Positions 1 to 21,200 of a DNA stretch of 64,000 nucleotides are shown piece by piece. A program made the position numbers and the translations under genes. This stretch comes from Alphaproteobacteria bacterium (lineage in GTDB: Bacteria; Pseudomonadota; Alphaproteobacteria; JABAAW01; JAHZMA01). The notes beneath the pieces were generated by a model. The model did not search any database. It was not told where the DNA came from and saw only the letters and a list, made by a program, of their open reading frames with translations. Every line of letters begins with the position of its first letter. Positions within the stretch are counted from its first letter, which is position 1. The DNA lies in contig CBDBHZ010000012.1 of the NCBI GenBank assembly GCA_965205905.1, forward strand, positions 316,445 to 380,444. The letters run 5' to 3'.

Positions 1-288
1 TTTATCCGCAACCATGCCGAATCTGCCTATCACCCTTGCGGCACTGCCAAGATGGGCGATAAAAACGATAAAATGGCGGTGGTGGATAATGAATGCCGTG
101 TGATTGGGGTGCAAAATTTACGGGTGGCGGATAGTTCTATTTTTCCGCGAATCACCAATGGCAATTTGAATGCGCCGTCTATCATGGTGGGCGATAAGGC
201 ATCTGACCATATTTTAGGCAAGCCGTTACTGCCTGCTGAAAATCTTGAGGCGTTCACTCATCCAAATTGGCAAAAAAGCCAAAGATGA
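1..288 (+). CDS. GMC-family oxidoreductase (choline dehydrogenase-like), C-terminal fragment; 5' end lies outside the window
   Basis: Frame 1 is open from position 1 ([19 protein letters not shown]...[31 protein letters not shown]), which is typical of a GMC oxidoreductase C-terminus. Stop at 286-288. Confidence 0.6.
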
Positions 289-1193
289 CGCCAGTGAAAA
301 ATCAGGTGAAAAATCAGGTGTTGCATGGCGATTGTATCAATTTGATGCGTGATGTTCCCGATAATAGTGCCGCATTATGTATTGCTGACCCGCCTTATAA
401 TATTGGCAAAGATTTTGGCACTACCCATGATGATGCGATGCCCTTGCCTGATTATCTTGAATGGACAAATCAATGGTTGCAGCAGGCGATTCGAATCGTG
501 AGGCCCGATGGGTTGGTTTATATCTACGGTTATGCTGAAATTCTTGCCCATATTGCGGTTAAATATCCGATTGAGAGGCAACATTGGCTGGTATGGCACT
601 ATAAGAATAAAGCCACACCATCATCAAAATTTTGGCAACGAAGTTCGGAAATGATATTATGCCTATGGCAAACCGCAAATCGCCCAAATCTCAATATTGA
701 TGCGATTCGTGAACCCTATAGCGAGTCATTTTTGAATAATGCGGCGGGCAAAACCCGCGCAGGCACCAAAGGCAGGTTTGGCAAATCGGGTGATGCAACC
801 ACTTACCATGCCCATCAAAATGGCGCATTACCACGTGATGTATTGGAAGTGCCAGCATTGGCAGGCGGCGCGGGCAGAGCGCAAAGATGGTTTTATTGTC
901 GCGATTGCTTTGAGGCATATCCACCTGATTCGGCAAAAAATCACGAAAACCATGATATTTTCAAGCACCCGACTCAAAAGCCGATTCGTTTAACGGAACG
1001 TTTGCTTAATTCTTGCATGCAAAAAGGGGATAAGTTACTTATCCCCTTTGCTGGTTCTGGTTCAGAATGTGTGGTAGCGCGCAATAAAGGGCTAGATTTT
1101 ATCGCTTTTGAGGCGAATAAAGATTACACATTACTTGCTAATTCATGGCTTAACAAAAGCCAATCATCAACAAAATCAGTTAGAAACACCTGA
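285..1193 (+). CDS. beta-class DNA amino-methyltransferase (N6-adenine/N4-cytosine, PF01555-like), apparently orphan
   Basis: N-terminal HGDCINLM and CIADPPYN (motif IV); HPTQKP; C-terminal FAGSGSE (motif I). The motif order IV...I means beta class. The ATG at 285 overlaps the upstream stop (ATGA); an alternative TTG lies at 267. Confidence 0.75.
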
Positions 1194-3228: not shown

Positions 3229-4551
3229 TTATCGCATCATGTTGATGATATTCATGGCATCAGCATTGGCATTCAAAGGCGGTTTTTTATGCAATTTCTT
3301 ATGCGATTCTTGTTTTAATGATAATGTTTTTATATCCGATTCTTGCCACATTTCTACCGACATATTATTATTTGGCATATGACTGTTGAAAACATTTTCA
3401 TCCTCAGCTTCTGCCCTGAAATCGGGCGGTGCTGCCAATAGCGGATTGCGTGGCGGTAATCCAACAGGTGCTTTTGCAGGATATAATTTTGCGCGCAAAT
3501 CGTTGATGGATATGCTTTCGCCATCACGTTCAACATGCCAATAAGTCCAGCCATTGCAACTGGGCAGGCCTTGCAAAGTTGCGCCAATCTTATGAATCGA
3601 GCCACGATGCGCCCCCGATTCGATACTGGCATCAGCATAAATTTTGGCAACAAAGCGTCTATCATTGCTAAATAAATCCTCACCCGCTTGTAGCAAGCCA
3701 CTTTCTAATAGATTACCAAAAGGAATGCGAATTTGATTGTTACGCGCAACACCTTTCATATAATGCTTCATTTTCGGTTCTAACTGCTTAATATCAGCGA
3801 GCCGTTGCGTGGCGACATCAATATAATCTTTTCGTTGCTCAACACCGATATAATTACGCCCTAATTTTTTGGCAACCGCAAGCGATGTGCCAGTGCCAGC
3901 AAAGGGGTCAAACACAATATGTCCGGGTTCGGTGCAGGCATTGATGATGCGGTAAAGCAAGGATTCAGGCTTTTGCGTGGGATGCGCTTTTTTGCCCGCC
4001 TCATCTTTCATACGCTCGCCACCCGTGCAAATCGGCAGATACCAATCCGAACGCATTTGCGTATCATCATTCATGCTTTTCAGCGATTGATAATTAAAGT
4101 GATATTTTGCCTTTGGCGATTTTACCGCCCATAGCAAAATTTCGTGAGCGTTGGTAAAACGTGTGCCACGAAAATTAGGCATCGGGTTAGATTTCACCCA
4201 AATCACATCATTGATAAGCCAGAAACCGTTATCCTGCAAAATTTTACCGATGCGGTAAATATTATGATAACTGCCAATCACCCATAATGACGCATCATCT
4301 TTCATGATACGTTTTGCGCCTGATAGCCATTGTTCGGTGAATGAATCATAATGGGCAAAATCGTCAAATTCGTCCCATTTTTCATTGACGCCATCAACCA
4401 TTGATTGGTCGGGGCGCGTTAAGTCGCTGTTGAGTTGTAAGAAGTAGGGGGGGTCTGCAAATACTAAATCTACAGATTCCGATGGCATATCCTGCATCAC
4501 TGATACAGAATCGCCCGCCACTACCCGATTTAGGGGTAAGTCGTTGAACAT
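3229..4551 (-). CDS. ccrM: cell-cycle-regulated DNA adenine methyltransferase CcrM (GANTC family) with ~75-aa low-complexity C-terminal extension
   Basis: Near-colinear match to CcrM: SVDLVFADPPYFLQL, GSYHNIYRIGKILQDNGFWLINDVIWVKSNPMPNFRGTRFTNAHE, HPTQKPESLLYRII, GSIHKIGA...CNGWTYWH. Conserved ccrM-rnhB synteny. Confidence 0.85.
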   Translation of the reverse strand: MFNDLPLNRVVAGDSVSVMQDMPSESVDLVFADPPYFLQLNSDLTRPDQSMVDGVNEKWDEFDDFAHYDSFTEQWLSGAKRIMKDDASLWVIGSYHNIYRIGKILQDNGFWLINDVIWVKSNPMPNFRGTRFTNAHEILLWAVKSPKAKYHFNYQSLKSMNDDTQMRSDWYLPICTGGERMKDEAGKKAHPTQKPESLLYRIINACTEPGHIVFDPFAGTGTSLAVAKKLGRNYIGVEQRKDYIDVATQRLADIKQLEPKMKHYMKGVARNNQIRIPFGNLLESGLLQAGEDLFSNDRRFVAKIYADASIESGAHRGSIHKIGATLQGLPSCNGWTYWHVERDGESISINDLRAKLYPAKAPVGLPPRNPLLAAPPDFRAEAEDENVFNSHMPNNNMSVEMWQESDIKTLSLKQESHKKLHKKPPLNANADAMNIINMMR

Positions 4552-7328: not shown

Positions 7329-8399
7329 ATGACAAATTTTCAACCCCACCGTTTTACTGTTGCCCCGATGATGGGCTATAGCCATCGCCACTTTCTTGCT
7401 TTTATGCGAATTATCAGCAAACATTGTCTGTTATTTACCGAAATGTTGCCGATAGCGGCGGTGGTTGCCAATCAGCAAAAATTATGCGATTGGCGGCATG
7501 ATAACGCGCCATTGATTGTGCAATTAGGTGGGTCTGATACCGCATTACTGGCGCAATCATGCAAAATTATCAGCGATTACGGTGGGGCAACTGGTGGGGC
7601 TGTGGGCATTAATCTTAATATGGGATGTCCGTCATCACGGGTGGAAAAGGGCGCGTTTGGCGCATGTTTGATGCTAGAACCAGAAAAAAGCGCATCATTG
7701 GTTGCGGCGATGAAACAAGCAACCTCTTTGCCTATCAGCGTTAAACTCCGCATTGGTGTGGATAGGGGAGGCGTTAATAAAAGCGGTGAGTATAGCGAGG
7801 AAGATGCCGAGAAACTCTATCATTTGATTGGTTTGCTGGTATCTGCGGGTGCCAGTGAGATTTATCTTCATGCCCGCAAAGCGATATTAAAGAAACTGAA
7901 CCCAAAACAGAATCGCAACATTCCGCCATTGCGTTATGATATTGCACAGGCTTGCAAGCAGAACTTTCCTGATGTGCCGATTATCGTTAATGGCGGTATC
8001 GATTCGATGGCGCAAGCAAAAACATTGTTGCAAGATTATGATGGGGTGATGATAGGGCGCGGCTGTATCAATCATCCGCTTCAATTTATGGGCATCGATA
8101 AGGAAATTTTTGGCGATGATGCTGATATGCCAAGCATCGATTCGATATTTCAGCAATATTTAGACTATATGTATCAAGAGTTGGCACGGGTTAAACAGGG
8201 CAATCATTCGGAACGCTATCAGCAAAAATCGGTGTATCATTTTATGTTGCAACCATTACTCACCTTTCTATATGGCATGAAAGGCGCGAAACAATGGCGG
8301 ATAATGGTCAATAATCTGTTCCAAAACCCTGAATTGCTACATGATAAAGCTTATATGCGGGATATGCGTGAAGTCTTACTGAATTTTTATGTTGAGTAG
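7329..8399 (+). CDS. dus: tRNA-dihydrouridine synthase (DusA-like)
   Basis: NLNMGCPSSRVEKGAFGACLM catalytic-Cys motif and TIM-barrel Dus layout. Confidence 0.8.
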   Translation: MTNFQPHRFTVAPMMGYSHRHFLAFMRIISKHCLLFTEMLPIAAVVANQQKLCDWRHDNAPLIVQLGGSDTALLAQSCKIISDYGGATGGAVGINLNMGCPSSRVEKGAFGACLMLEPEKSASLVAAMKQATSLPISVKLRIGVDRGGVNKSGEYSEEDAEKLYHLIGLLVSAGASEIYLHARKAILKKLNPKQNRNIPPLRYDIAQACKQNFPDVPIIVNGGIDSMAQAKTLLQDYDGVMIGRGCINHPLQFMGIDKEIFGDDADMPSIDSIFQQYLDYMYQELARVKQGNHSERYQQKSVYHFMLQPLLTFLYGMKGAKQWRIMVNNLFQNPELLHDKAYMRDMREVLLNFYVE

Positions 8400-8431
8400 T
8401 AGCAACACGGAACACCGCTAATATTGAGTAT

Positions 8432-8558
8432 GGCGGGGGGATTATCAAGGGTGAGGTTTGCCCGCCATTGGTACAAGGGCAAACCGAACTTGCATAGGTT
8501 TGTAGGGGTGCCGCCGCACCCCCCTTGATACATAAAACAACCTCGCAAAGCCCCCCAT
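8432..8558. repeat. GC-rich nested palindromic element (stacked hairpins) in the dusA / MTase-HNH convergent intergenic region
   Basis: Perfect 9-bp stem ggtttgccc(8456-8464)/gggcaaacc(8477-8485). Perfect 7-bp stem ggggtgc(8505-8511)-cgcc-gcacccc(8516-8522). Outer arms tatcaaggg(8443-8451)/cccttgata(8522-8530) and ggcgggggg/gccccccat. Confidence 0.5.
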
Positions 8559-8566
8559 ATATAGAC

Positions 8567-9808
8567 TCAACTATAATTAATCACTTCTCTCGCTTCTTTA
8601 ATTTTCTTCACCTTTGCAAGCAAATATTCCATTGGGCGATTGCCTTTTACGCGGTTACAATTGCCACATAAAAGCTGATAATTTTCGTAATAATCACCGC
8701 CTCCTTTTGACTTGGGAATCACATGGTCAATCTCAAGATTGCGCTGTTCAAATTCATTAAAGCAACCGTTACATTTTCCTGTTTGCGCTTTATGTAAACG
8801 TGTTTTAATTGGCTCTGCTGGTGCGATTCTCTCAACATCTGTTCGTTGCGGCGGAATGGTTGTATTGATAAAATCTGAAAACATGCCTGCATCACCTGAT
8901 AGACGTTCCACCAATATATCAGCGGCTTTTTCTTCAATATCACAGCCAATCCATTTGCGATTTAATTGTTGTGATGCCACGCAAGCAGTGGCACAGCCAC
9001 AAAACGGGTCGAATACCACATCGCCTTTGTTACTTGATGCTTTAATGATGCGATGCAGTAACGCAAGCGGTTTTTGTGTTGGGTATCCTGTGCGTTCTTT
9101 TGGTGAAATATGCCCACCAGCTGGTATATCAGTCCAGTAATCCGCGGGCAATCTACCCCTTGCGATATATTCTGCCTGAACATCCTTGTCTTGCAATTTG
9201 CCACCGCCATCACCCCATATAGCGGGTTTTTTGCCCTTATCTGAATTTAGTCTTTTATACGGAATTCTAACATCATCATCATTGAAAACCCAATCATCAC
9301 TTTTGCTATATCGTAATATAGTGTCATGCTTTTTTGGAAAATTATTGCGCGACCCACTAGGACCACTATAACACCATATAATTTCATTACGAAAATTATT
9401 CTTGCCAAAAATGCCATCCATAATGATTTTTAGATAATGGCTTGCGGTTGGGTCAATATGCACATAGATACTGCCTGTTACTTTTAATATTCTGTTCATC
9501 TCAAGCAATCTCTGTGTCATATAGGCAATATACGAAGCCATCGCTGTTGAATGCAGGCGATAGATGCTATCAATAAAATCAGCAATATCAGGGTGGGTTT
9601 CATAAAGCCTCTCAAGGTAAGCGATATTAACATCGTCCCAACGCCACATATCCTTAAATGATGCCCCTGCTGATTTACTACCTACTGGCGCAGAATAAGT
9701 GCGCTTGCTATTAAAAGGTGGGTCAAGATAGATGAGGTCAACTGATTCGCTATCCATGCCATTAAGCAGAAATAGATTATCCAATGTATAAAGGGTGTTA
9801 CTACTCAT
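8567..9808 (-). CDS. beta-class DNA amino-methyltransferase fused to C-terminal HNH endonuclease domain
   Basis: MTase part: SVDLIYLDPPFNSK (motif IV), NEIIW, GYPTQKPLALLHRII, DPFCGCATA (motif I). Tail: CNGCFN...IDHVIPKSKGG...N...CGNCNRVKGN, a canonical HNH. The start overlaps the fliN stop. Confidence 0.8.
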   Translation of the reverse strand: MSSNTLYTLDNLFLLNGMDSESVDLIYLDPPFNSKRTYSAPVGSKSAGASFKDMWRWDDVNIAYLERLYETHPDIADFIDSIYRLHSTAMASYIAYMTQRLLEMNRILKVTGSIYVHIDPTASHYLKIIMDGIFGKNNFRNEIIWCYSGPSGSRNNFPKKHDTILRYSKSDDWVFNDDDVRIPYKRLNSDKGKKPAIWGDGGGKLQDKDVQAEYIARGRLPADYWTDIPAGGHISPKERTGYPTQKPLALLHRIIKASSNKGDVVFDPFCGCATACVASQQLNRKWIGCDIEEKAADILVERLSGDAGMFSDFINTTIPPQRTDVERIAPAEPIKTRLHKAQTGKCNGCFNEFEQRNLEIDHVIPKSKGGGDYYENYQLLCGNCNRVKGNRPMEYLLAKVKKIKEAREVINYS

Positions 9809-10481
9809 TACTGGCATAAAACAGCGTATGATGCTCATCAATATCGGCAATCATATTCACCACGCGTATTTGAAAATACTCACCATCAGATTCCAAATGC
9901 CCTTGCCCGATAAGGTGATGCCCGATTTTCAATTCCAGACTGCTTTCAATATCTTTATCAATCTCAATAATCGCACCGCGCCCGATTTTCATTAATTGCT
10001 CAATGCGTAACTCGGTATTGCCGATTTCGGCAACAATTTGCAATGGCACACTCGCCATAGCGGTGGTCTCAATATCAAATCCCGGCACAGTTACAACGGT
10101 TGGCTCTACTTTTTGCACCGAAGCATGTTCACCTTCAGGGTCGATATTATATTTATGGTCTGTATGAGGAATATCTTGTTGCGTATTGCCATGATAAATA
10201 TCTTCTTCTTTTAAGATATCAGCAGTTTTTTCAGGGGATACCGCCTGTGCGGTTTGGTTGAGTAATGTGTCTATATCAAAATTATCGCCTAAAGTTTCAC
10301 CTTGCACACCATCGCGCGGTATATGCACAGCGCCTATAGTTTCTGGATTGGTGTTTGCTGGCATTATATTTTCTGGCATTATATTTTCTGGATTGGCATC
10401 ATTCAGAATCTGCGTTAAATCATCGGGCAACTGCCCATTATTAGCATTATTAAACTCATCAGCCATATTATCATCCTTCAT
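9801..10481 (-). CDS. fliN: flagellar motor switch FliN-like protein (SpoA domain) with acidic repetitive N-terminus
   Basis: C-terminus VPLQIVAEIGNTELRIEQLMKIGRGAIIEIDK...LIGQGHLESDGEYFQIRV is a FliN/SpoA domain. The N-terminus is low-complexity, D/E/N/P-rich. Confidence 0.6.
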   Translation of the reverse strand: MKDDNMADEFNNANNGQLPDDLTQILNDANPENIMPENIMPANTNPETIGAVHIPRDGVQGETLGDNFDIDTLLNQTAQAVSPEKTADILKEEDIYHGNTQQDIPHTDHKYNIDPEGEHASVQKVEPTVVTVPGFDIETTAMASVPLQIVAEIGNTELRIEQLMKIGRGAIIEIDKDIESSLELKIGHHLIGQGHLESDGEYFQIRVVNMIADIDEHHTLFYASNE

Positions 10482-10536
10482 ATAAGAATATCATCATATT
10501 TCGCACTATAGCATAATCACAGTGAAACAGTCAAAA

Positions 10537-11544
10537 TCAAACTTTTGCCATGATTCTAGCAACATCAATCATGCGGAGCGAGAATGCCCATTCATTATCA
10601 TACCATGCGCCAACACGGATAAAATCATCGGCAATAATTTGCGTCTGCCCCATATCAAAGATACAGCTTGCGGGGTGATGCGTGAAATCAATCGATACCA
10701 GTGGCTCATCACTATAGGCAAGCACATTTTTTAGTTCATTTTCGCTTGCCTTGATAATCGCCTGATGAATCGTATCAACACTCACTTTTTTGCGCGCTGA
10801 GAATGTTAAATCAACAAAGGATACATTGGCGGTTGGCACGCGCATAGAACAGCCATCTAATCGCCCTTCAAGTTCTGGAATAACCTGACTGACCGAGCTT
10901 GCCGCACCCGTTGTGGTTGGCACAATAGAAAGCCCCGCAGCCCGCGCACGGCGGAAATCCTTATGGCTGGCATCAACCAGATTTTGGTCGCCCGTATAAG
11001 CATGAATCGTCGTCATGTAACCTTTTTCTATGCCCGCAACCTCATTCATGATTTTGGCAAGGGGGGCAATGCAGTTGGTGGTGCAAGAAGCGTTAGAAAT
11101 AACTTTATGGTCAGGCTTAATAGCGTGATGGTTAATGCCATAAACCACCATTAAATCAGCTTGCTTGCAAGGCGCTGATACCAATATTTTTTTGGCACCG
11201 CCAATGGTAATATGTTGCTCTGCCGCTTTTTTATCGTTAAATTTACCACTACATTCTAGCACAATATCAACATTATGTGCGCGCCAATCTATCGTCTGTA
11301 AATCGCGGCTGTTCATTAAAGCCACTTTGCCATGTGGGGTGATAAGAGTGTCGCCCTCAATGCTAACAGGCACATTGCAAACGCCATGCACAGAATCATA
11401 TTTCAGCAAATGTTGGGCAAGTTCGGGCTTGCTGATGGCATTGAGTGCGCTGATATGATAATCGGGGTTGGGGTCTTCTAACCATGCGCGGAATATTAAC
11501 CTACCGATGCGTCCAAATCCGTTGATAGCCCATTGTTGTAACAT
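10537..11544 (-). CDS. gap: glyceraldehyde-3-phosphate dehydrogenase
   Basis: INGFGRIGR and SCTTNC motifs; 335 aa. Confidence 0.9.
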   Translation of the reverse strand: MLQQWAINGFGRIGRLIFRAWLEDPNPDYHISALNAISKPELAQHLLKYDSVHGVCNVPVSIEGDTLITPHGKVALMNSRDLQTIDWRAHNVDIVLECSGKFNDKKAAEQHITIGGAKKILVSAPCKQADLMVVYGINHHAIKPDHKVISNASCTTNCIAPLAKIMNEVAGIEKGYMTTIHAYTGDQNLVDASHKDFRRARAAGLSIVPTTTGAASSVSQVIPELEGRLDGCSMRVPTANVSFVDLTFSARKKVSVDTIHQAIIKASENELKNVLAYSDEPLVSIDFTHHPASCIFDMGQTQIIADDFIRVGAWYDNEWAFSLRMIDVARIMAKV

Positions 11545-11637
11545 TTTATTCTCCTTATATCAGCAATATGCAAGTAATTTAACGATAATTATGTTTAAAA
11601 TCAAGTTGGTGATTAAAATTTGTTATCAAACTGAGAG

Positions 11638-12456
11638 TTATTTTTCATTATATTTAGGGTCGCTATATGGAATATCTTCAGGGTTAGCTAGACTGATATT
11701 GCTATATAAATCTTCAGACCGCTTTAAGAATAGCATCAAAATATCAGCGGCATTTGAGGTAAAGTTAAAAATTGTATGTTCAAAAACAAGATTTTCACCG
11801 GGTTTTATCGGCTTGGGTGGCATTTTGACACGGGTAACATATTCCTCAGTCCCATAGATATTGACAAGCGAAAGACGCAATGTTGGCACAACAGCCTCTT
11901 GCCCACTCACATTGGTAATGGTGCTTCTAATATTTAAGATTCTCTCTAAATTTCTAAATTGCACTGAAAACTGGGTGTCGGTAATAACAAAACCCTTCAC
12001 ATTGGTTTTTTCATCTACATCCAGATTAACAGTGTTATAAATTTTTGAGAGGGCAGGGAATTGTGCCACTAATATATCGCGGTAAAATACCGAATAGGTT
12101 ACCATAGAAAAAGTAACCACAATCAGAATAAGCCATGCGGTGAAAATAAGACTTTGCCGAACGCGTCTGCTTTGATAATCCGAAACATAAGCCGATTTCA
12201 GCAGTGATGGCATGTTATCACCGGGTAGCCTATCAATCGCAATCGCATCATGTCCGCCATAAGAAATAGAGGGCGCTGCACCATCATCAAGAAACACATC
12301 AACCGAAACATCTGTTTCGGGAATATCAGCATAGATGGCGGGGTCTACAAACCATTCATGGTTGCAAATACCACATTGCACCTGTTTGCCAACACTCTCT
12401 AATGCGCTTTTTCTTACATCAAAAATCGATGTGCAATAGGGGCAGGAAATATGCAT
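11638..12456 (-). CDS. MJ0042-type zinc-ribbon / DUF3426-like membrane protein
   Basis: MHISCPYCTS...VQCGICNHEW zinc ribbon, one TM segment, C-terminal DUF3426-like region. An upstream in-frame Met at 12528 is possible. Confidence 0.45.
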   Translation of the reverse strand: MHISCPYCTSIFDVRKSALESVGKQVQCGICNHEWFVDPAIYADIPETDVSVDVFLDDGAAPSISYGGHDAIAIDRLPGDNMPSLLKSAYVSDYQSRRVRQSLIFTAWLILIVVTFSMVTYSVFYRDILVAQFPALSKIYNTVNLDVDEKTNVKGFVITDTQFSVQFRNLERILNIRSTITNVSGQEAVVPTLRLSLVNIYGTEEYVTRVKMPPKPIKPGENLVFEHTIFNFTSNAADILMLFLKRSEDLYSNISLANPEDIPYSDPKYNEK

Positions 12457-12656
12457 ATATTTGTCTCTATTATCAGTAGCATGGTTGCTATTACGATATA
12501 ACATAAACAGTCTAAGGCTAGCAAGCAATCAGTTTATGATAAAATATTATAATTGCACTGTATAAATATGCCTTGCTGTGTTAATATTGCAAAAAGTAAC
12601 GACATATAATATTACCAGCGATGTCGCTTACATATTGAGGGGATGATTGCTTTAAG

Positions 12657-13922
12657 ATGCAGGAAAATATAACAAACAGAACGATTTTCTGCCGTGATAA
12701 TCTTGATATTATGCGGGGGATGGATACAGAATCTATCGACCTCATCTATCTTGACCCACCTTTTAACACAAAAAAAACATTTACTGCCCCGATTGGCAGC
12801 AGTGCAGAGGGGGCTTCGTTTTCTGATATTTTCCGTGAAGAAGATGTGAAAGATGAGTGGTTGCTAGATATTAAAGAAGATTTTTTTTCTATCCATGAAT
12901 TTCTAAATTCTGTCAAAAATATAGAAGGGCGCACATCTTATAATTTTTGTTATCTTGCTTATATGGCGATTCGATTGATAGAATGCCATCGTATCTTAAA
13001 AGATACGGGTAGCCTATATTTACATTGCGACCCAACCATGAGCCATTATTTAAAAATTCTGCTAGATTGTATTTTTGGTGAGAAGAAATTTAGGAATGAA
13101 ATTATATGGAGTTACCAACGGTGGACGGGCGCAACAAAGAATTTTCAAAAAATGCACGATATTATTTTATTTTATGCCAAAAACAACAATAACTTTACCA
13201 TGATTAGCGAGCCCTATAGCGATAAATCAAAACATAAGGGGCGGCGATTTACAACCACGCAAAAGGGCGCCATCACAGGTCAAGAATATATCAATGCGAA
13301 CCGCGAAAAAGCAATGCGTGACGTTTGGGAAATATCAATATTGAATAGCCAAGCCAAAGAGCGCACGGGCTATCCCACTCAAAAACCTCTTGCTTTGCTA
13401 GAACGCATTATCAAAGCCTCTTGCCCCGAAAATGGTATCGTGCTTGACCCCTTTTGCGGTTGCGCCACCACATGTATTGCGGCTGAACGATTGGGCAAAA
13501 AATGGATAGGCATTGATATATCAGTAAAAGCTTACGAATTGGTGCGTGAGAGGCTGGCAAAAGAAGTGGAGTGGGAAGATAGCCTGTTCCATGAAGAGTT
13601 GGTGAATTTTCAAACAAATCCGCCTAACCGCACTGATATTGGGCAAGATACGCAAGTAAAAAAATATGTCTATATTATATCGCATCAGCAATATCAGGGC
13701 GAATATAAAGTCGGGATTGCGTCTGATGTAAAATCAAGGCTGAATAGCTATCAAACGGGCGATCCTAACCGTGCCTATCACTTAGAATATTCATTTCATA
13801 CGCCATATTTTCGGGCGATAGAAAACTATATTCATGAAAAATATGATAATAAACATGAATGGGTGAGTGGTGAATTAAAGGATATTATTAAAGATATTGA
13901 AAATTATCAATCAAACGGGTAA
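12657..13922 (+). CDS. beta-class DNA amino-methyltransferase fused to C-terminal T5orf172/GIY-YIG-like domain (paralogue of 8567-9808)
   Basis: SIDLIYLDPPFNTK, NEIIW, GYPTQKPLALLERII, DPFCGCATT, colinear with the HNH-fused paralogue. Tail YVYIISHQ...YKVGIASDVKSRLNSYQTGDP...EKY...HEWV fits the T5orf172 (PF10544-like) pattern. Confidence 0.75.
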   Translation: MQENITNRTIFCRDNLDIMRGMDTESIDLIYLDPPFNTKKTFTAPIGSSAEGASFSDIFREEDVKDEWLLDIKEDFFSIHEFLNSVKNIEGRTSYNFCYLAYMAIRLIECHRILKDTGSLYLHCDPTMSHYLKILLDCIFGEKKFRNEIIWSYQRWTGATKNFQKMHDIILFYAKNNNNFTMISEPYSDKSKHKGRRFTTTQKGAITGQEYINANREKAMRDVWEISILNSQAKERTGYPTQKPLALLERIIKASCPENGIVLDPFCGCATTCIAAERLGKKWIGIDISVKAYELVRERLAKEVEWEDSLFHEELVNFQTNPPNRTDIGQDTQVKKYVYIISHQQYQGEYKVGIASDVKSRLNSYQTGDPNRAYHLEYSFHTPYFRAIENYIHEKYDNKHEWVSGELKDIIKDIENYQSNG

Positions 13923-13966
13923 TATCATATATAACTATAAAAATGGTTCGGAGGTAAAAGATAAGA

Positions 13967-14554
13967 GTGATGACTGATAAGCAAATAATCTATATTGGTA
14001 TGGGGAGCAATGTCGGTGATAGGAATCAGCATTTTAATAGAGCGATTGCTGTTTTATCGCAAAATATAGAGATACAACAATTATCGCATCGCTTTGTTAG
14101 CAAGGCAATGTATAACACCCAACAAGATGATTTCTTAAATATGGTGATACGTGGCGCAAGCTTTATGTCGGCACGCCAGATACTCACCTTCTTTAAGCAG
14201 ATTGAACAAAGTTTTGGACGTGATTTACAGGCGGCGCGCTATGGCCCACGTCCGCTTGATATAGATTTGCTATTTTATGGCAACCATATCATTGATGAGG
14301 CTGACTTAAAAGTGCCGCACCCCTTATTGTATGAGCGCAATTTCGTGCTAGAGCCGTTAGTGCAAGTGGCTGATAATGATTTTTACGACCCTCATTCAGG
14401 CAAACGTGCAACGCAACTATTGACAGATTTGTTTCGCAATCAGGGCAGAACAATTCCTTTTGCTACCAAGCATGAGCCAGCATCGCGTGTTGTGAAGCCG
14501 CTTTATCAAAAAGCATCGCAAGCCCAACCGACCATCCGAAAGCTTGTCTTGTGA
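13967..14554 (+). CDS. folK: 2-amino-4-hydroxy-6-hydroxymethyldihydropteridine pyrophosphokinase
   Basis: IYIGMGSNVGDR...LDIDLLFYG...HPLLYERNFVLEPL are HPPK signatures. Confidence 0.8.
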   Translation: MMTDKQIIYIGMGSNVGDRNQHFNRAIAVLSQNIEIQQLSHRFVSKAMYNTQQDDFLNMVIRGASFMSARQILTFFKQIEQSFGRDLQAARYGPRPLDIDLLFYGNHIIDEADLKVPHPLLYERNFVLEPLVQVADNDFYDPHSGKRATQLLTDLFRNQGRTIPFATKHEPASRVVKPLYQKASQAQPTIRKLVL

Positions 14555-16395
14555 TTGCTGATTATCTTAATGACTTTCACATGTGGGCAGTATTTGCGAT
14601 TGTTGTGGGGAGTTTTTATCTTTATGCCAGTCAAAAATTACCGATGGAGGTAACGGCATTTGGTATTATTGTCGCCCTTATTTTATTATTTTATATCGCG
14701 CCATATCAAAAACAGGTTTTGGATTATCAAGATTTACTGTTTGGTTTTGCCAACCCCGCGCTTATCACATTGCTATGTTTGCTGGTGTTGGGCGAGGCTG
14801 TAAATCGCACAGGCATGTTAGATAGGCTAACTGAAAAAATCATTAAAATTGCTGCGGGCTATCGCATGATAGCGATTATTTTCTCGTTCACGATTGTGCT
14901 GGTGATTAGCGGTTTTCTTAATAATATTCCGGTGGTGATGCTGTTTATTCCAGTGATTTTCAAAATCTGTCGACGTTTCCGCGTGCCGCCCGGTCGCTAT
15001 ATGATGTCGCTCAGTTTCTTTTCAATATTAGGCGGGATGACGACGTTAATCGGCTCTTCTACAAATCTTTTGGTGTCGTCGGCATTGATTGCGATGGGCA
15101 GAGAGGGTTTTGACTTTTTCACTTTTACCGCGCCCGGTATCATCATGGTGATTAGTGGTGGTTTTTATGTGTTCTTTATCATGCCGTTTATTATGAAGCA
15201 TTTAGGCGAGCAGAAAACGCCCGCCGAAAGCCATGAACGCGATATTTTCTTTATGCAATTTACCCTTAATGATGAGTTGAAATTGGTGGGTAAAAGCGCG
15301 GATGGTGAGGGAAAATTTGAAGAGTTGCCTGATACAGTTCAGTTGCAATTTGTGAAACGCGGTAAGAAAATATTTCATCCGCCTTTTCAATCGGTAACCT
15401 TAAATAAAGGCGATGTGATGGTGGTGGCGGCAACCCAAGAAGAATTTGAAAAAATGAGCCAAAATCAAAGCCTTGAAGTGTTTTCTGGCAATGTTGACAA
15501 TGATGATGAGCATAAAGCAGAAGTAAAGCCAGAGGTAAAATCATTGGGACGTGCCGAAGTGGTGGTGGTGCCAAATTCATCAATGGTGAATCGCACCATC
15601 AGCTCCATCCGCTTTTTTGACCGCTATGATTGTGCAGTGCTAGGCATTAAGCGCAAGCGGGCAAAGATTACCCAACAGATTGATGATGTTAAACTTGAGG
15701 GTGGTGATGTTTTATTATTGCAAGGCGACCGTGAGAGTCTGTTGCAATTAAAGCGCAGCCGCAATATGATTCTGATGGAGCACTCGCTCAGCGAAGTGAG
15801 TTCAGTCAATTTTCTCAAACGTTCGGTATTGATTTTTAGCTTGGTGATGCTGTTTGCTGCCACTGGCACTGTGCCGATTTTGTTAGCGACCTTAGTGGGC
15901 GTGTTGGCGATGTTTGTCTTAAAAATTATCAGTGTACCTAATGCGTTAGGGGTAATGGATGGTAAAATCATTCTGGTGATTAGCGCGTCATTGGCGTTGG
16001 GATTGGCGTTAGAGGTAACTGGCGGTGCCAGCCTTATCGCGATATTATTTGTGCAATTAATGGGCAACAGCTCACCTGCCATCGTGCTATCGCTGTTTTT
16101 CCTCATCACGGCTTTATTATCTAATATGCTTTCTACCAAAGCGACAGCGGTTTTATTCACGCCGATTGCGGTTGGCATTGCGAATCATTTGGGCGTTGAT
16201 GCTTTGCCATTTGTGATTGCGGTTGTGTTTGCTTCTAATTGTTCATTTGCATCACCGATTGGTTATCAAACCAATCTGCTGGTGATGGGACCGGGTGGCT
16301 ATGAGTTTAAAGATTTCTTGAAAGCAGGCTTGCCTTTGATTATGGTATGCTGGCTAACATTTACTGTGTTGGCATTTACTTTCTTTAATTTATAA
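14551..16395 (+). CDS. SLC13/DASS-superfamily permease with two internal TrkA-C domains
   Basis: Two multi-TM halves flank two TrkA-C-like segments (VVVPNSSMVNRTISSI..., LQFVKRGKKIFHP...). Confidence 0.6.
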   Translation: MIADYLNDFHMWAVFAIVVGSFYLYASQKLPMEVTAFGIIVALILLFYIAPYQKQVLDYQDLLFGFANPALITLLCLLVLGEAVNRTGMLDRLTEKIIKIAAGYRMIAIIFSFTIVLVISGFLNNIPVVMLFIPVIFKICRRFRVPPGRYMMSLSFFSILGGMTTLIGSSTNLLVSSALIAMGREGFDFFTFTAPGIIMVISGGFYVFFIMPFIMKHLGEQKTPAESHERDIFFMQFTLNDELKLVGKSADGEGKFEELPDTVQLQFVKRGKKIFHPPFQSVTLNKGDVMVVAATQEEFEKMSQNQSLEVFSGNVDNDDEHKAEVKPEVKSLGRAEVVVVPNSSMVNRTISSIRFFDRYDCAVLGIKRKRAKITQQIDDVKLEGGDVLLLQGDRESLLQLKRSRNMILMEHSLSEVSSVNFLKRSVLIFSLVMLFAATGTVPILLATLVGVLAMFVLKIISVPNALGVMDGKIILVISASLALGLALEVTGGASLIAILFVQLMGNSSPAIVLSLFFLITALLSNMLSTKATAVLFTPIAVGIANHLGVDALPFVIAVVFASNCSFASPIGYQTNLLVMGPGGYEFKDFLKAGLPLIMVCWLTFTVLAFTFFNL

Positions 16396-16421
16396 TATTA
16401 TTTTTTGAAAAGGATTGATAG

Positions 16422-18215
16422 ATGCATGATTATCGGACGCATCATTGTTACGAATTGACTCTGAAACAAGCGGGGAACTCTGTTAAATTATCGGGTTGGG
16501 TAGATAGAAAACGCGACCATGGCGGTTTATTATTTATTGATTTGCGCGATATGTATGGTATCACGCAATGTGTGGTGGAAGAAAATTCACCCTTATTTGC
16601 TGAGCTCACCAATGTACCACTAGAATCAGTACTTTGTGTTGATGGTGAGGTGCAACCGCGCACTGCCGAAACCATCAATAAAGATTTAGGCACAGGCGAG
16701 ATTGAAGTCCGCGTGAGGCAAGTTGAAATGTTATCGGAAGCGGCGGCATTGCCGATGCCCGTTAATCAGGAAAGCAGTGATTATCCTGAAGATATAAGGT
16801 TGCGCTATCGTTATCTGGATTTACGAAAGCGTGATATGATGAATAATATTATATTGCGTAACCGTGTGGTGAAACTATTGCGGGAAAAAATGCACGCCCG
16901 TGGTTTTCAAGAGTTTCACACGCCGATTCTAACGGCAAGCTCGCCCGAAGGTGCGCGTGATTTTTTGGTGCCTAGCCGTTTGCATCCGGGTAAATTTTAC
17001 GCATTGCCACAAGCACCGCAACAATTTAAGCAATTATTGATGGTGGCAGGGTTTGATAAATATTTCCAAATCGCGCCATGTTTTCGCGATGAAGATGCGC
17101 GCCGAGACCGCTCGCCCGGTGAGTTTTATCAGCTGGATTTTGAAATGGCATTCGCCACCCAACAAGATGTGTTTGATGTGATTGAACCCGTGCTTCACGA
17201 ATTATTTACCGAATGTTCCGATAAAACAGTTAGTCCCTATCCGTTTCAGCAAATCACCTATCATGATGCGATGAATAAATATGGCTCGGATAAGCCCGAT
17301 TTGCGTAATCCGTTATTGATACAAGAAGTTACCGAAATTTTTGAAGGCTCTGATTTTAAGATTTTTGCAAAATTGATTGCTGAAAAAGACTTTATCGTTC
17401 GTGGTATTATCGTGCCAGATGCGGCAGCACAGCCACGTTCATTCTTTGACAAGCTCAATGATTGGGCGCGGTCGGCAGGGCAGGCAGGGCTTGGCTATAT
17501 CAGCTTTAAAATGGAAGGTAGCGAGGGCGGTGAAGGCCCTATTGCGAAAAATCTTGACGATGCACGGATTGCTCAATTAAAACAACTCACCAATATTAAG
17601 CAGGGCGATGCGGTGTTTTTTGCATGTGGTAAGCCGCATGAATCAGCGCAATTTGCAGGGCAGGCGCGGACTAAAATTGCCGAAACGCTGGATTTGATTA
17701 AGAATGATTCATTCCAATTTTGTTGGATTACTGATTTTCCATTTTATGAGCTTGATGAAAAAACAGGCAAAGTGATTTTCTCGCATAATCCTTTTTCTAT
17801 GCCACAAGGCGGGTTAGATGCGCTTAATAATAGTGACCCACTCGCGATTAAAGCATGGCAATATGATATTGTGTGTAATGGGATTGAGCTTTCATCAGGG
17901 GCGATTCGAAATCATCGCACTGATATAATGCTGAGAGCGTTTGAAATTGCGGGCTATTCTAAAGAGCAAGTGGAACAAGAATTTGGCGGTATGCTAACCG
18001 CATTTTCGTATGGTGCGCCACCACATGGCGGGGCGGCACCAGGTCTTGAGCGCATTGTGATGTTATTGGCTGATACGCCGAATATTCGCGAGATTGTGCC
18101 ATTCCCAATGACGCAAACCGCGCAAGATTTAATGACGGGCGCACCGCTTGCGATTGATGAGAAGCTGTTAGAAGAGGTGCATATTCGCGTGAAAATGCCG
18201 ATTTTACCTGAATAA
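16422..18215 (+). CDS. aspS: aspartate--tRNA ligase
   Basis: 597 aa; class II AspRS motifs ([19 protein letters not shown]). Confidence 0.9.
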
Positions 18216-18239
18216 CTGCCTTGATTAATGAGATAAAAT

Positions 18240-21200
18240 TTAAACGTCGTTAAAATAACGGGCACGGTAATCGCTTAAAAAGCTTTCGGTTGTTGCTTCT
18301 TGTGATAAAAGCCGTATCACCTCGCTGGCTTCAGCGGTTGAAAAATTATCACTGGAGGTGGCTTTGATATAGTCAAAGGCACGCTTTAATGGTGAGTTCC
18401 GCATACTCGGCTCAAAACGTTGTGCGACTTGCCGAAGCGTATCATATTGCTGTGATAATTGCAGTGACAACAGCCAGTTAATCAGATAATTGGCTTTTTG
18501 GTTGCCTAAAAACACATCTTCAGCTGGTGGCTCACCAGTAAGCCGCTGCATGGTAATGGCAGCACGATACCAATCTTGATTGTTCCAAAAAATATCGCGA
18601 CGCAGTAAATCGGCATTCAGTGATAAATCACCAGCGATTAAATCAAGTGCCGATTCTGGCTGTTCTAAATCAATCAATGCTTTGGCGTATAATCTTCTGG
18701 CATCAACGCTTTCTTGTGATGATTCAATGCCCAAATCGCTCCGATAGGTTTCAAACACATTAATCGTGCCTTCAGGGTTGCCCATCGTAATATGCAATAG
18801 TCCAACTTTTACGATAAGCGACCGCTTTTGCTTTGCCGTTAGCAACCTTTCAGCTATCAGTGGTTCTAACAATTCATTGGCGTTTTGATAAAATTGTTCC
18901 TCTATCAGATTATCGGCGATATTAGAAATAATCCGCACGCGTTCATTGCCAATGGGAAGCAATTCACGGAAATTGCGTAATAATTTGAGAGATGTTTGGG
19001 CATCAATATTAATATTTTCGTTTTCTTCTAAAAAGATTGAACGGAACACAGAAATCATTTCTTGGGTGAGTAATAAAGCAGAGGGGTTTTCAGGAAAGTA
19101 AGCAGCGGCATCACGTAAAATATTAAGCCCTAGCTCTACCTCACCAATGTCTAAATATAATTCACCTAAGCGCCCTAATAATTGTAATTCCAAATTATCA
19201 CCACGCCAAATATAGCGTAGATGCTCTAATTTTTGCGCCGATTCTTCAGGTAAGTTATCTCCCCTATTAAGGTCATAATTGATTTTTTCTAATTCAGCGA
19301 GAACCACCCATTTATTATTGGGGTCTAACTCAATCATTTCTTGCCAAACACCATAGGCATAATTGCTATCATTTTTGCGTAAGGCGAATAAGCCATCATA
19401 ATATAAAAAACGCTGATATTCATATTTAGCCATTTGGTTAATAAAATTACGCAATGTTTCTAACCATGTTTGCACCACAACCAAATCATTCGTGGCAAAA
19501 CCAGTTTCAATCTGCCAGTTGGCAATCCAATTTCTTAAATAGACAGGATAACGCCGTGCAAAATCGCTTGAACGTTCAAAGCGTAATTGGGCAGCTTCCC
19601 ACTCACCTTTTTGGGCGGCCGCAATACCTTGCCATAAGATTGCCTCGCCATAAGAAGAAAACACATCATCCGCTAGAATTTCAATGGCATCGTCGGTGCG
19701 CTCCATCAGCAGTAAAACCGCAGCTTTTAAGAGGCGGTAATTGATAGAATCGGTGGGATTATCAAAAACATCTTCATAAAGTTCTATATAGCCATATGCT
19801 TCACTGTTTAATTTTTGCCCTAAATAAAAAGTAGCCGCAGAAAGGTGATAAGCCCCACGTTCATTGCTAGGTAGGGTATAGTCTAAACTGTTATGAAGCT
19901 GTTGACGCGCTTCTAAAAATGGTAAAGCGCTATAAGAAATTGGTGGGAAATTAAGCAACGCATCATTCGAGGTATCATTTGCGCCGTCACCGTCATTTTC
20001 TAGTTTTTGCTGTGCAATATTTAAACCTGTTTCTTTATTAACGATGTAACCAGTTTCAGTATCAAAAATACTGATTCCTTCAATATGCGGCACAATCGCA
20101 ACACCTTGCTGTGCAGAAAGAAGCGAAAATTCTACAAAATCTCGCTGTTGTGTATTGGCAATGCCTAATGATTTAAATGTGCCAACCAGCAACTCACCAC
20201 CATAGATGGGGTCGGTAAATGTTACTGCTTTGCCAATATTGCTTGATGATAAAAGTAAATATTTATTGTTTTTGGCATCACGCTGTATATGCCCTGATAC
20301 TGTTTGCGTGGGGGTATAGGGTTCATCATGGAAACGCAAAATATAATTGAAGCCTTTTTGTGTAATAGATGCATTAATCTCGCGTGTTGGTAAAAACCTT
20401 AAAACAGTTGCCTCAGGCACCTCAACCCTTGCCACCTCCAGTAATAAGGGCAATAATCTGGTTCGCAATTTGCTTAAATTCACAGGCAAGTCACGGTCGG
20501 CGATAAACCAGTAATAGCCACCATATCTGAAAAATGCTGTGCCAATATTCTCAGTAAGTGGGATTGTAACGGTTTGTTGAGCATCAGGTAATGTTAGAAT
20601 TGAGCTTCCTAAATTGCGATTGATATTGGTTTTTGGGGGCGTGAAGGGGATTGTGCTAAAACGCTGAGAATCACCCCTAATCGTAGCTTTGGGAAAATCA
20701 TTGCGCTGCACCACTTCTTGTTGTTTTGGCAGTAAATCAATGACAATTTTTGTGCCTGAGCGAAAATGCCTGATATTGTAGCTATCGGGGACTTCCATTG
20801 CGAACACACTGGTGCTATCAATTTGCAAAATACGTGCATTACCAAATGGTTCGTTAGCATTAAACTCAACTTGGCTGATATCAATGGCTTCATTTTGCCC
20901 AAATGTAATTTGCATCTCTTCACTATCATACTCAATCAGATATTGCACTTCGGTTGTAAAATCAAAAATTATTCTTAAATATTCGGGCGTCCGTCCGATA
21001 CGCACAATATTTCTATTATCATTGCCGAATTGGTCATCATCGCTTAATGCTTCTAAATCAACACCTTGTGAAGAAAATACATTATTTGATTGCGTGTTGT
21101 TACTGGCTTCTTCCACAGAAGGTAAATCCTGATAACCCGCAATGATATTGTCACTATCGCCATTGAAACTGTTATCATCAATAATCGCTTCAGCAGCTGT

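What the first reader, a model, noticed from the sequence alone, without database searches (positions are those of the whole stretch)
12657..13922. Paralogous MTase fused instead to a T5orf172 (GIY-YIG-superfamily) domain
The first ~300 aa are colinear with the HNH-fused MTase (SIDLIYLDPPFNTK / NEIIW / GYPTQKPLALLERII / DPFCGCATT). The C-terminal ~90 aa instead match the T5orf172/MUG113 pattern (YVYII...YKVGIASDVKSRLNSYQTGDP...EKY...HEWV). So two paralogous methyltransferases carry different nuclease-superfamily tails. This is the hallmark of domain shuffling seen in selfish or defence modules. T5orf172 domains often act as DNA-binding rather than catalytic modules, so this copy could be a targeting or regulatory variant of the other.
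Basis: partly seen in the sequence, partly recalled or inferred. Interest (0 to 1): 0.65.

Follow-up and report, generated by a model that had tools for sequence, protein, structure and literature searches.

The report
Mobile methyltransferase–nuclease fusion gene
This gene encodes a DNA adenine-type methyltransferase fused to a T5orf172 nuclease domain; it is a horizontally inserted member of a large, uncharacterised family, found mostly in sponge-symbiont-type bacteria, that most likely acts as a one-protein restriction-modification enzyme.

Summary
ORF 12657-13922 (+) encodes 421 aa: a beta-class N6_N4 DNA methyltransferase (E 2.8e-52) with a C-terminal T5orf172 domain (E 2.1e-10). It is colinear with the HNH-tailed methyltransferase at 8567-9850 up to a shared PPxRTD linker.

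The two genes are not local paralogs. Their cores are 54% identical. Each has much closer relatives elsewhere (74% median for the T5orf172 type; 88% best for the HNH type).

Both genes are clean ~1.4-kb single-gene insertions. They are absent from two otherwise colinear related genomes.

The family has a constant scaffold around a hypervariable central target-recognition domain (TRD). Relatives form tandem arrays of up to six copies that are 97-100% identical in DNA except for the TRD. Some ride inside IS1595-type transposons. Hosts are MAGs of more than ten phyla, mostly sponge-symbiont lineages.

The tail keeps the residues that are catalytic in the phage nuclease Odn and is under strong purifying selection (dN/dS 0.05).

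Best reading: a self-contained, mobile, single-chain restriction-modification enzyme of unusual architecture. Enzymatic activity is untested.

The parts
12657..13922 (+). Whole ORF, 421 aa: methyltransferase fused to a T5orf172 domain
   Evidence: ORF list. Pfam N6_N4_Mtase + T5orf172 + MUG113. More than 120 database clusters have the same architecture at 55-94% identity.
12588..13969 (.). Inserted segment (~1.38 kb) that carries the gene; absent from related genomes
   Evidence: blastn of window 1-20000 against L162 (82-84% nt identity) and L163 (~70%). The region is colinear except for gaps at 8380-9801 and 12588-13969. L162 has only 36 nt between its Zn-ribbon gene and folK. GC3 is 0.367 against 0.40-0.46 in neighbouring genes.
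12753..12764 (+). Catalytic motif IV, DPPF (residues 33-36)
   Evidence: Read from the translation. Invariant in 139 of 139 T5orf172-tailed relatives.
13107..13346 (+). Hypervariable target-recognition domain (TRD), residues ~151-230
   Evidence: Majority-residue frequency falls from 0.8-0.97 in the flanks to 0.11-0.3 at residues 181-220. 148 family proteins fall into 62 TRD types.
13446..13472 (+). AdoMet-binding motif I, DPFCGCATT (residues 264-272)
   Evidence: Read from the translation. Present in 139 of 139 T5orf172-tailed relatives. The order motif IV - TRD - motif I is the beta-class order.
13545..13661 (+). Linker with the conserved PPxRTD motif (residues 297-335); fusion point shared with the HNH-tailed family
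   Evidence: Alignments A1 and A2. A P-x-R-[TSDN]-[DE] motif is found in 125/139 T5orf172-tailed and 58/62 HNH-tailed proteins.
13662..13901 (+). T5orf172 (GIY-YIG-clan) nuclease domain, residues 336-415. Candidate active-site residues: Y339, K351-V-G, R361, E389, H393
   Evidence: Pfam. AlphaFold tail model, pLDDT 88.7, beta-beta-alpha-beta-alpha topology. Top Foldseek hits are GIY-YIG proteins but weak, E 0.28-2.6. Motif match to the Odn nuclease. dN/dS 0.052.
8567..9850 (-). Second fusion gene: the same methyltransferase scaffold with a C-terminal HNH nuclease. The true start is probably the Met at about 9808-9817.
   Evidence: Pfam N6_N4_Mtase + HNH. It lies in a separate inserted segment, 8380-9801, absent from L162 and L163. 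Its TRD is closest (67%) to that of a T5orf172-tailed protein, P0005.

Best explanation
The gene encodes a beta-class DNA methyltransferase, probably N6-adenine. Its C-terminus carries a catalytically competent T5orf172 (GIY-YIG-clan) nuclease.

It belongs to a very large family built as a constant scaffold: an N-terminal catalytic half, a C-terminal AdoMet-binding half, a PPxRTD linker and a nuclease. The scaffold surrounds an exchangeable, hypervariable target-recognition domain (TRD). A sister family has the same scaffold and draws on the same TRD pool, but carries an HNH nuclease instead.

I propose that each protein is a self-contained single-chain restriction-modification enzyme. The TRD reads a short DNA motif. 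The methyltransferase marks that motif in the host genome. The tethered nuclease cuts DNA where the motif is unmethylated. It probably acts as a dimer, or from two sites, as known combined enzymes do.

One TRD would steer both activities. Swapping it would therefore create a new specificity without separating protection from attack. This would explain the tandem arrays of copies that differ only in the TRD.

The gene behaves as a mobile single-gene module. In this window it is a 1.4-kb insertion between a Zn-ribbon gene and folK. In some relatives it is a passenger of IS1595-type transposons.

Shown: architecture, family structure, the insertions, conservation of catalytic residues, purifying selection. 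Inferred: nuclease activity, coupling of cleavage to methylation state, a defence role.
For: - Architecture and motifs. DPPF and motif I are intact in 139/139 T5orf172-tailed relatives.
- Closest solved structures are all beta-class m6A methyltransferases: M.BceJIV, CcrM, RsrI, MboIIA.
- Tail: Y339, K351, E389, E401 and W402 are invariant and R361 is at least 90% conserved in 109 sequences. The segment YVYII / KVG / R361 / E389-NYIHE matches Odn YLYVI / KVG / R148 / E180-QRIHE. Odn is an experimentally active T5orf172 nuclease; its specificity comes from an appended DNA-binding domain and it is killed by E180A (PMC8263062).
- The tail's dN/dS is 0.052, as low as the methyltransferase core.
- A non-homologous nuclease sits at the same position in the sister family: the full HNH motif is present in 61/62. 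Nine TRD types are shared between the two families. This argues that the tails do the same job.
- No conserved partner gene: the only recurrent neighbour is an IS1595 transposase, in 16 of 80 loci.
- Arrays: six tandem copies in L003 are 97-100% identical in DNA outside the TRD and 14-50% inside it. Further arrays occur in L004, L009, L021 and L031, and each typed copy has a different TRD type.
- Mobility: empty sites in L162 and L163. The 89%-identical homolog sits in a different gene context. Terminal inverted repeats (TIRs) enclose transposase plus fusion gene in L016, L045 and L011.
- Combined restriction-modification enzymes that use one specificity module, with many copies per genome, are established for Type IIC/IIG (PMC4081073).
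Against: - No member of either fusion family has been tested biochemically, as far as the searched literature shows.
- Structural support for a GIY-YIG fold is weak by Foldseek statistics (best E 0.28). The profile alignment to Odn covers only 29 columns (E 0.062); the Glu match was made by eye.
- In CcrM a C-terminal non-catalytic DNA-binding domain occupies the same position (my own knowledge of PDB 6PBD). A nuclease-fold tail could therefore serve only as a DNA clamp.
- Known Type IIC enzymes have a different layout: an N-terminal PD-(D/E)XK nuclease with a gamma-class methyltransferase.
- How a 1:1 fusion would avoid cutting the host genome on arrival in a new cell is unexplained.
- PADLOC recognises only the methyltransferase part.
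Confidence: 0.55

Rival explanations
1. Solitary (orphan) methyltransferase. The T5orf172 tail is a non-catalytic DNA-binding or targeting domain. The protein only methylates DNA, for example to protect it against foreign restriction enzymes or for epigenetic regulation.
For: T5orf172 was first predicted to be DNA-binding through its association with Bro-N and KilA-N (quoted in 10.1101/2020.11.28.402263). The window's CcrM-type gene carries a C-terminal RAMA domain at the equivalent position. There is no separate restriction gene nearby. Foldseek support for a nuclease fold is weak.
Against: The residues that match the catalytic Arg and Glu of active Odn are conserved across 109 relatives (Glu invariant, Arg at least 90%). 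The sister family has an HNH tail with the complete catalytic and zinc motif in 61/62; it is hard to see why two unrelated nuclease folds would both be kept intact merely to bind DNA. The tail's dN/dS is 0.05.
Confidence: 0.2
2. A selfish mobile gene in which the nuclease serves mobility, not restriction. The tail makes breaks that promote copying or insertion of the gene, as in free-standing homing endonuclease genes, or promote gene conversion that shuffles TRD cassettes. The methyltransferase is cargo or self-protection.
For: Both fusion genes in the window are precise single-gene insertions between housekeeping genes, with no transposase. The closest homolog lies at another locus. The tail's nearest phage relatives are T5-like phage proteins, some annotated as homing endonucleases. 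T5orf172 and HNH are the usual free-standing homing-endonuclease folds (PMC10448857 abstract). Array copies are homogenised to 97-100% around unrelated TRDs.
Against: Occupied sites differ between relatives, so there is no sign of site-specific homing. Where a vehicle is visible, it is an IS1595 transposase. The large TRD diversity and the invariant methyltransferase motifs point to selection on sequence-specific methylation. This rival overlaps with the main explanation, because restriction-modification systems are themselves selfish mobile elements.
Confidence: 0.15
3. A decayed or inactive remnant: a methyltransferase that happens to have kept a dead nuclease domain after horizontal transfer.
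For: Broken copies exist among relatives: a frameshifted tail in L004, and tail-less, frameshifted or N-terminal fragments in L023, L034, L062, L032 and L044.
Against: The window ORF is intact with all motifs. dN/dS against the 89%-identical homolog is 0.03-0.10 in every segment at dS 0.6-0.8.
Confidence: 0.05

Closest known systems
Type IIC / IIG combined restriction-modification enzymes (e.g. MmeI, BpuSI, Eco57I; exception BtgZI)
   Same: Nuclease and methyltransferase sit in one polypeptide. One specificity module would steer both activities. No separate partner is required in some (MmeI). Many TRD-diverged copies per genome occur in some bacteria (PMC4081073).
   Different: Known members have an N-terminal PD-(D/E)XK nuclease with a gamma-class methyltransferase. 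BtgZI has an alpha-class methyltransferase with a C-terminal PD-(D/Q)XK domain. Here a beta-class methyltransferase has an internal TRD and a C-terminal T5orf172 or HNH nuclease. Activity here is unproven.
Odn (Gp88) of Vibrio phage ICP1, a T5orf172 nuclease
   Same: The T5orf172 domain has the same motif set (Y-x-Y, KVG, Arg, E-x-x-I-H-E). The nuclease is given its target by a separately acquired DNA-recognition domain on the same chain. Odn is shown to cleave DNA, and E180A kills it (PMC8263062).
   Different: Odn's targeting domain is a RepA-like origin binder with no methyltransferase. It is a phage anti-satellite weapon. Sequence similarity to the window tail is low.
Type III Mod and other beta-class methyltransferases with exchangeable central TRDs (M.BceJIV, RsrI, MboIIA, CcrM, EcoP15I Mod)
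   Same: Same fold and motif order. Conserved N- and C-terminal parts flank a variable central TRD. To my own knowledge, allelic TRD exchange is established for Type III mod genes.
   Different: Those proteins carry no nuclease; in Type III the nuclease is the separate Res subunit. The true CcrM-type gene of this genome is a different ORF (3229..4551). The window protein scores 77 bits against a cutoff of 830 on the CcrM model.
Shedu-nuclease homologs fused to a PF01555 methylase domain
   Same: A PF01555 methylase is fused to a nuclease in one protein. The authors proposed it to be functionally equivalent to a Type II restriction-modification system (bioRxiv 10.1101/2023.08.10.552793).
   Different: The nuclease there is the Shedu PD-(D/E)XK-type domain, not T5orf172 or HNH. 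That proposal is also only a prediction.
IS1595-family insertion sequences with passenger genes
   Same: In 16 of 80 related loci an IS1595 transposase (PF12762 + PF12760) is adjacent. It often abuts the fusion gene within 0-3 nt. Terminal inverted repeats enclose both genes in L016, L045 and L011.
   Different: The window copy has no transposase and no matching inverted repeat.

Membership tests
Beta-class N6/N4 DNA methyltransferase (Pfam PF01555) | HMM score above the curated cutoff | tested here: met
   178.3 bits against 26.7, residues 27-296.
Beta-class N6/N4 DNA methyltransferase (Pfam PF01555) | Motif order: catalytic motif IV (D/S-P-P-Y/F), then TRD, then AdoMet motif I | tested here: met
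   DPPF at residues 33-36, variable region ~151-230, DPFCGCATT at 264-272.
Beta-class N6/N4 DNA methyltransferase (Pfam PF01555) | Target base (N6-adenine versus N4-cytosine) | tested here: inconclusive
   A DPPF motif rather than SPPF/Y, and the best structural matches all being m6A enzymes, favour adenine. No methylome data are available.
T5orf172 / GIY-YIG clan nuclease (Pfam PF10544) | HMM score above the curated cutoff | tested here: met
   41.4 bits against 20, residues 337-405; MUG113 29.8 bits against 22.3.
T5orf172 / GIY-YIG clan nuclease (Pfam PF10544) | GIY-YIG-type fold (three-stranded sheet with flanking helices) | tested here: inconclusive
T5orf172 / GIY-YIG clan nuclease (Pfam PF10544) | Catalytic Tyr, Arg and Glu present | tested here: met
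   Y339, R361 and E389 are conserved in 109 relatives. They line up with Odn Y127, R148 and E180. The second Tyr is Lys (KVG), as in active Odn.
T5orf172 / GIY-YIG clan nuclease (Pfam PF10544) | Endonuclease activity | not testable with these tools
   Needs purified protein.
Type IIC/IIG combined restriction-modification enzyme | Nuclease and methyltransferase domains in one polypeptide | tested here: met
   Domain calls.
Type IIC/IIG combined restriction-modification enzyme | Canonical layout: N-terminal PD-(D/E)XK nuclease plus gamma-class methyltransferase | tested here: not met
   Here a beta-class methyltransferase carries a C-terminal T5orf172 domain (definition from PMC4081073). It is therefore at most a new architectural variant.
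Type IIC/IIG combined restriction-modification enzyme | Sequence-specific cleavage blocked by its own methylation | not testable with these tools
   Requires biochemistry or phage-challenge assays.
Free-standing homing endonuclease gene | Presence/absence polymorphism at one specific site, with homologs at that same site | tested here: not met
   The site is empty in L162 and L163. But the closest homologs occupy other loci.
IS1595-family transposon passenger | Adjacent IS1595 transposase and enclosing terminal inverted repeats | tested here: not met
   There is no transposase homolog in the window and no GGGAATTATAT-type repeat near the gene. The feature is met for relatives L016, L045 and L011.
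CcrM cell-cycle methyltransferase | NCBIfam equivalog score | tested here: not met
   77 bits against a cutoff of 830. The conserved CcrM-type gene is 3229..4551.

The most novel reading that the evidence does not exclude
These beta-class methyltransferase-nuclease fusions (T5orf172- or HNH-tailed) form a previously uncharacterised class of single-chain restriction-modification enzymes. Their specificity is set by a plug-in TRD cassette. They diversify by cassette exchange into tandem multi-specificity arrays. They spread as single genes or IS1595 passengers among bacteria of more than ten phyla, mostly sponge-symbiont lineages. They may account for much of the reported enrichment of HNH and PF01555 domains in sponge symbionts. 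A bolder extension is that the nuclease itself drives the cassette exchange or the gene's insertion.
Probability: 0.4. Interest if true: 0.78.

Novelty: new variant of a known kind. Interest (0 to 1): 0.62.

Why it matters
If the fusions are active single-chain restriction-modification enzymes, they add a new architecture to the combined enzymes: a beta-class methyltransferase with a C-terminal GIY-YIG-like or HNH nuclease. Nature already provides a library of interchangeable recognition cassettes (62 types among 148 proteins sampled here). That would be a source of new restriction and nicking specificities and a simple system for engineering specificity.

Ecologically, it would give a concrete gene family behind a published domain-level observation: sponge-symbiont metagenomes are enriched in HNH and PF01555 domains (quoted in PMC12284385). 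It would also show one defence or selfish module crossing more than ten bacterial phyla.

The claim is directly testable with one cloned gene and with long-read methylome data.

Tried and rejected
- Phage origin of the fusion. tblastn against 50,697 phage records found the methyltransferase core in 779 records, but none covers 80% of the protein. An IMG/VR scan found 371 core relatives and none with the tail. The tail alone does match T5-like phage proteins at 35-45% identity.
- PADLOC defence models matched only generic methyltransferases.
- A search for an IS1595 transposase or its inverted-repeat motif in the window found none beyond chance.
- I looked for target-site duplications at the two insertion junctions and found none convincing. 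The same holds for L016.
- DNA identity to L001 stops at the ORF ends. I first read this as an 'ORF-only' mobile unit. I rejected that as weak, because dS is 0.6-0.8 and non-coding flanks would be unalignable anyway.
- Cluster-member look-up for organism names returned no names.
- Look-ups of same-contig paralogs P0035 and P0050 returned nothing.
- My first TRD clustering was too permissive, giving one giant cluster. I redid it on the inner TRD only.
- A 30-replicate bootstrap on 209 taxa timed out. I redid it on 116 taxa with 20 replicates.
- Literature searches for this fusion found no description of it. The terms tried were T5orf172 + methyltransferase, T5orf172 + sponge, PF01555 + sponge, and N6_N4_Mtase + HNH. 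The GIY-YIG-methyltransferase fusions in PMC1564403 are a different kind, Slx1-like + COG4123. The ShiLan HNH element in phage methylases is an out-of-frame insertion and not a fusion.
Full report
**1. The observation**

ORF 12657..13922 (+) is intact and encodes 421 aa. Pfam assigns three domains:
- N6_N4_Mtase, residues 27-296, E 2.8e-52
- T5orf172, residues 337-405, E 2.1e-10, 41.4 bits against a cutoff of 20
- MUG113, residues 350-411, E 9.4e-7

The gene at 8567..9850 (-) has the same methyltransferase domain plus an HNH domain, E 2.4e-12. The two proteins are 42% identical over 382 aligned columns, E 1e-94. They are colinear up to a shared PPxRTD motif and unrelated after it.

**2. The setting in the window**

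The first 14 kb hold four PF01555 methyltransferase genes:
- 267..1193: methyltransferase domain only
- 3229..4551: methyltransferase plus RAMA, next to rnhB, i.e. CcrM-like
- 8567..9850: the HNH-tailed gene
- 12657..13922: the T5orf172-tailed gene

They sit singly among housekeeping genes: mlaC, folB, folP, rnhB, a Na/H exchanger, dus, a FliN-like gene, gap, a Zn-ribbon gene, folK, an SLC13 permease and aspS. The window contains no tRNA genes. No restriction gene sits beside the gene in question.

**3. Both fusion genes are insertions**

The SLC13 neighbour has a 91%-identical ortholog in MAG GCA_022599575.1 (locus L162) and a 71%-identical one on a 1.93-Mb contig (L163). Both loci are colinear with window 1.9-20 kb, including the CcrM-like gene. 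DNA identity is 82-84% for L162 and about 70% for L163.

The only gaps are window 8380-9801 (the HNH gene) and 12588-13969 (the T5orf172 gene). L162 has 5 nt and 36 nt at those places. Two outgroups lacking both genes makes gain in the window's lineage the simpler reading.

Other points:
- GC3 of the two genes is 0.37 and 0.34. Most flanking genes are at 0.40-0.46.
- The closest homolog of the T5orf172 gene (P0001, 89% aa) lies in an unrelated gene context (L001).
- The MAG that supplies L162 carries an HNH-tailed homolog on another contig (L049). It matches the window gene at 80% DNA identity on both sides of the TRD, but not in the TRD.
- I found no transposase, inverted repeat or convincing target duplication at the window insertions.

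**4. A large family with a constant scaffold and a variable centre**

The protein search returned over 120 clusters with the same two-domain architecture. Identity is 55-94% and length mostly about 420 aa. NCBI names them 'GIY-YIG nuclease family protein' or 'DNA methyltransferase'.

Within the family, the majority-residue frequency is 0.8-0.97 for residues 11-150 and mostly 0.7-0.94 for residues 231-300. It drops to 0.11-0.3 around residues 181-220. That is the position of the target-recognition domain (TRD) in beta-class enzymes.

Among 148 proteins I counted 62 TRD types. Nine types are shared between T5orf172-tailed and HNH-tailed proteins. The window's HNH gene has a TRD closest (67%) to that of a T5orf172-tailed protein.

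**5. The two genes are not each other's closest relatives**

| Comparison on core columns | Identity |
|---|---|
| Window T5orf172 gene vs window HNH gene | 54% |
| Window T5orf172 gene vs other T5orf172-tailed proteins | median 74%, best 86% |
| Window HNH gene vs L049 | 88% |

A neighbour-joining tree of core columns separates 54 T5orf172-tailed from 62 HNH-tailed proteins with no exceptions. In 20 bootstrap replicates there were 0-1 exceptions. The tail exchange thus looks like one old event, followed by separate spread of the two families.

**6. Tandem arrays**

A scan of species-representative genomes found at least 579 relatives. In a Flammeovirgaceae MAG (L003), six T5orf172-tailed genes lie head to tail.
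- Their first ~400 nt, their last ~550 nt and the 78/87-nt spacers are 97-100% identical.
- The central ~450 nt are only 14-50% identical.

Smaller arrays occur in L004, L009 and L063 (T5orf172 type) and in L021, L031 and L035 (HNH type). In L003, L004 and L021 every typed copy has a different TRD type. L031 and L063 each hold two copies of the same type.

**7. Vehicles**

The only recurrent neighbour is an IS1595-family transposase (PF12762 + PF12760), in 16 of 80 loci. In 12 of these it lies directly upstream on the same strand. The gap is 0-3 nt in five loci. Inverted repeats that share GGGAATTATAT enclose transposase plus fusion gene in L016 (24-nt core), L045 and L011.

**8. Hosts**

The record titles of the 80 best genome loci are nearly all MAGs. 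They include Poribacteria, Poriferihabitaceae, Porisulfidus, Dehalococcoidia/Chloroflexota, Caldilineaceae, Acidobacteriota, Flammeovirgaceae, Arenicellales, Spirochaetia, Nitrospirales and Alphaproteobacteria.

To my own knowledge these are typical sponge-symbiont lineages. Several isolate codes resemble published sponge MAG series. I could not verify sample metadata with these tools.

Published work reports enrichment of HNH and PF01555 domains in sponge metagenomes, at the domain level (PMC12284385). I found no paper that describes the fusion.

No phage record or IMG/VR contig holds the full architecture.

**9. Is the tail a nuclease?**

- Structure. The AlphaFold models are confident: full length pLDDT 85 and pTM 0.83; tail alone pLDDT 88.7. 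The tail folds as beta-beta-alpha-beta-alpha-beta-beta-alpha. The best Foldseek matches of the tail are GIY-YIG proteins (UPF0213, Slx1, HIGLE), but none is significant, E 0.28-2.6.
- Conserved residues. In 109 relatives Y339, K351, Y365, R372, R386, E389, E401 and W402 are invariant. R361 and H393 are at least 90% conserved.
- Comparison with Odn. Odn (ICP1 Gp88) is a T5orf172 protein shown to cleave DNA. Its specificity comes from an appended DNA-binding domain, and E180A inactivates it (PMC8263062). hhalign aligns the window's YVYII...KVG...R361 with Odn's YLYVI...KVG...R148, weakly (E 0.062). By eye, Odn E180-QRIHE matches window E389-NYIHE.
- Selection. Against the 89%-identical homolog, dN/dS is 0.052 for the tail, about 0.10 for the methyltransferase cores and 0.03 for the TRD, at dS 0.6-0.8.
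- Sister family. The HNH motif CxxC...DH...N...CxxCNxxK is complete in 61 of 62 HNH-tailed proteins.

Two unrelated nuclease folds, both kept intact at the same position on one scaffold and sharing one TRD pool, argue for a catalytic role.

**10. Mechanism proposed**

The evidence fits a single-chain restriction-modification enzyme. One TRD directs both a beta-class (probably m6A) methyltransferase and a tethered nuclease. The closest solved structures are M.BceJIV, CcrM, RsrI and MboIIA.

This logic is established for Type IIC/IIG enzymes (PMC4081073). It would explain three things:
- why TRD swaps are tolerated
- why arrays of TRD variants accumulate
- why no partner gene is needed

The layout differs from known Type IIC enzymes, so I class it as a new variant of a known kind and not as a member. 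Cleavage, its dependence on methylation state and any defence effect are all inferred.

**11. Rivals**

- The tail is only a DNA clamp on an orphan methyltransferase (0.2).
- The nuclease serves gene mobility or cassette conversion instead of restriction (0.15; partly compatible with the main reading).
- The gene is a decaying remnant (0.05; contradicted by the intact motifs and low dN/dS).

**12. Verdict**

The gene is one member of a widespread, mobile, uncharacterised family of methyltransferase-nuclease fusions. Its family-level features (TRD cassettes, arrays, cross-phylum spread) are more interesting than the local 'two paralogs' picture.

Noticed in passing
window 267-1193 (+) and 3229-4551 (-): Two further PF01555 methyltransferase genes lie within 14 kb. 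One has only the methyltransferase domain. The other carries a RAMA domain, sits next to rnhB, is conserved in both related genomes, and is probably the CcrM-type cell-cycle methyltransferase.
   Followed up: partly
window ~8400-8566: G+C-rich hairpin-like sequences (e.g. GGCGGGGGGATT...GCCCGCC, GGGGTGCCGCCGCACCCC) lie inside the HNH-gene insert, just downstream of its stop codon. They are absent from the empty site in L162.
   Followed up: no
window 12770-12777 and 12881-12888: An A8 and a T8 homopolymer tract lie inside the T5orf172-methyltransferase ORF. They could be slippage (phase-variation) sites, or simply reflect the A+T-rich sequence.
   Followed up: no
window 12581-12610: The best promoter-like site (TTAATA-18-TATAAT, 10/12) straddles the left insertion boundary, so the insert may bring its own -10 box. 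The number of such sites in the region is no higher than in shuffled sequence.
   Followed up: partly
L016 4950-7403: An IS1595-type unit carries the transposase, a methyltransferase-HNH gene and a 52-aa ORF (7210-7367). All lie inside 24-nt terminal inverted repeats, GGGGAATTATATCG[A/C]AAAGTAAAC.
   Followed up: partly
proteins P0247, P0241, P0243: Close relatives of the tail also occur without a methyltransferase. P0247 has two T5orf172 domains followed by an HNH remnant. P0241 and P0243 have two T5orf172 domains within larger repetitive proteins.
   Followed up: partly
L003 439-1857 and 11043-11753: The six-gene array starts 21 nt after an anthranilate-synthase (trpE-like) gene. A truncated serine recombinase gene follows it on the opposite strand.
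   Followed up: partly
L004 2607-3865; L023, L034, L062, L032, L044: Some family members are broken: a frameshift within the tail, tail-less or frameshifted ORFs, or N-terminal fragments. They may be decaying copies or assembly errors.
   Followed up: no
window 18240-24236 (-): A 1322-aa ORF with weak TPR-like similarity is followed by ORFs that correspond, by colinearity with L162 and L163, to genes annotated there as MotB-plug, CheZ and response regulator. The whole block is conserved in both related genomes.
   Followed up: no
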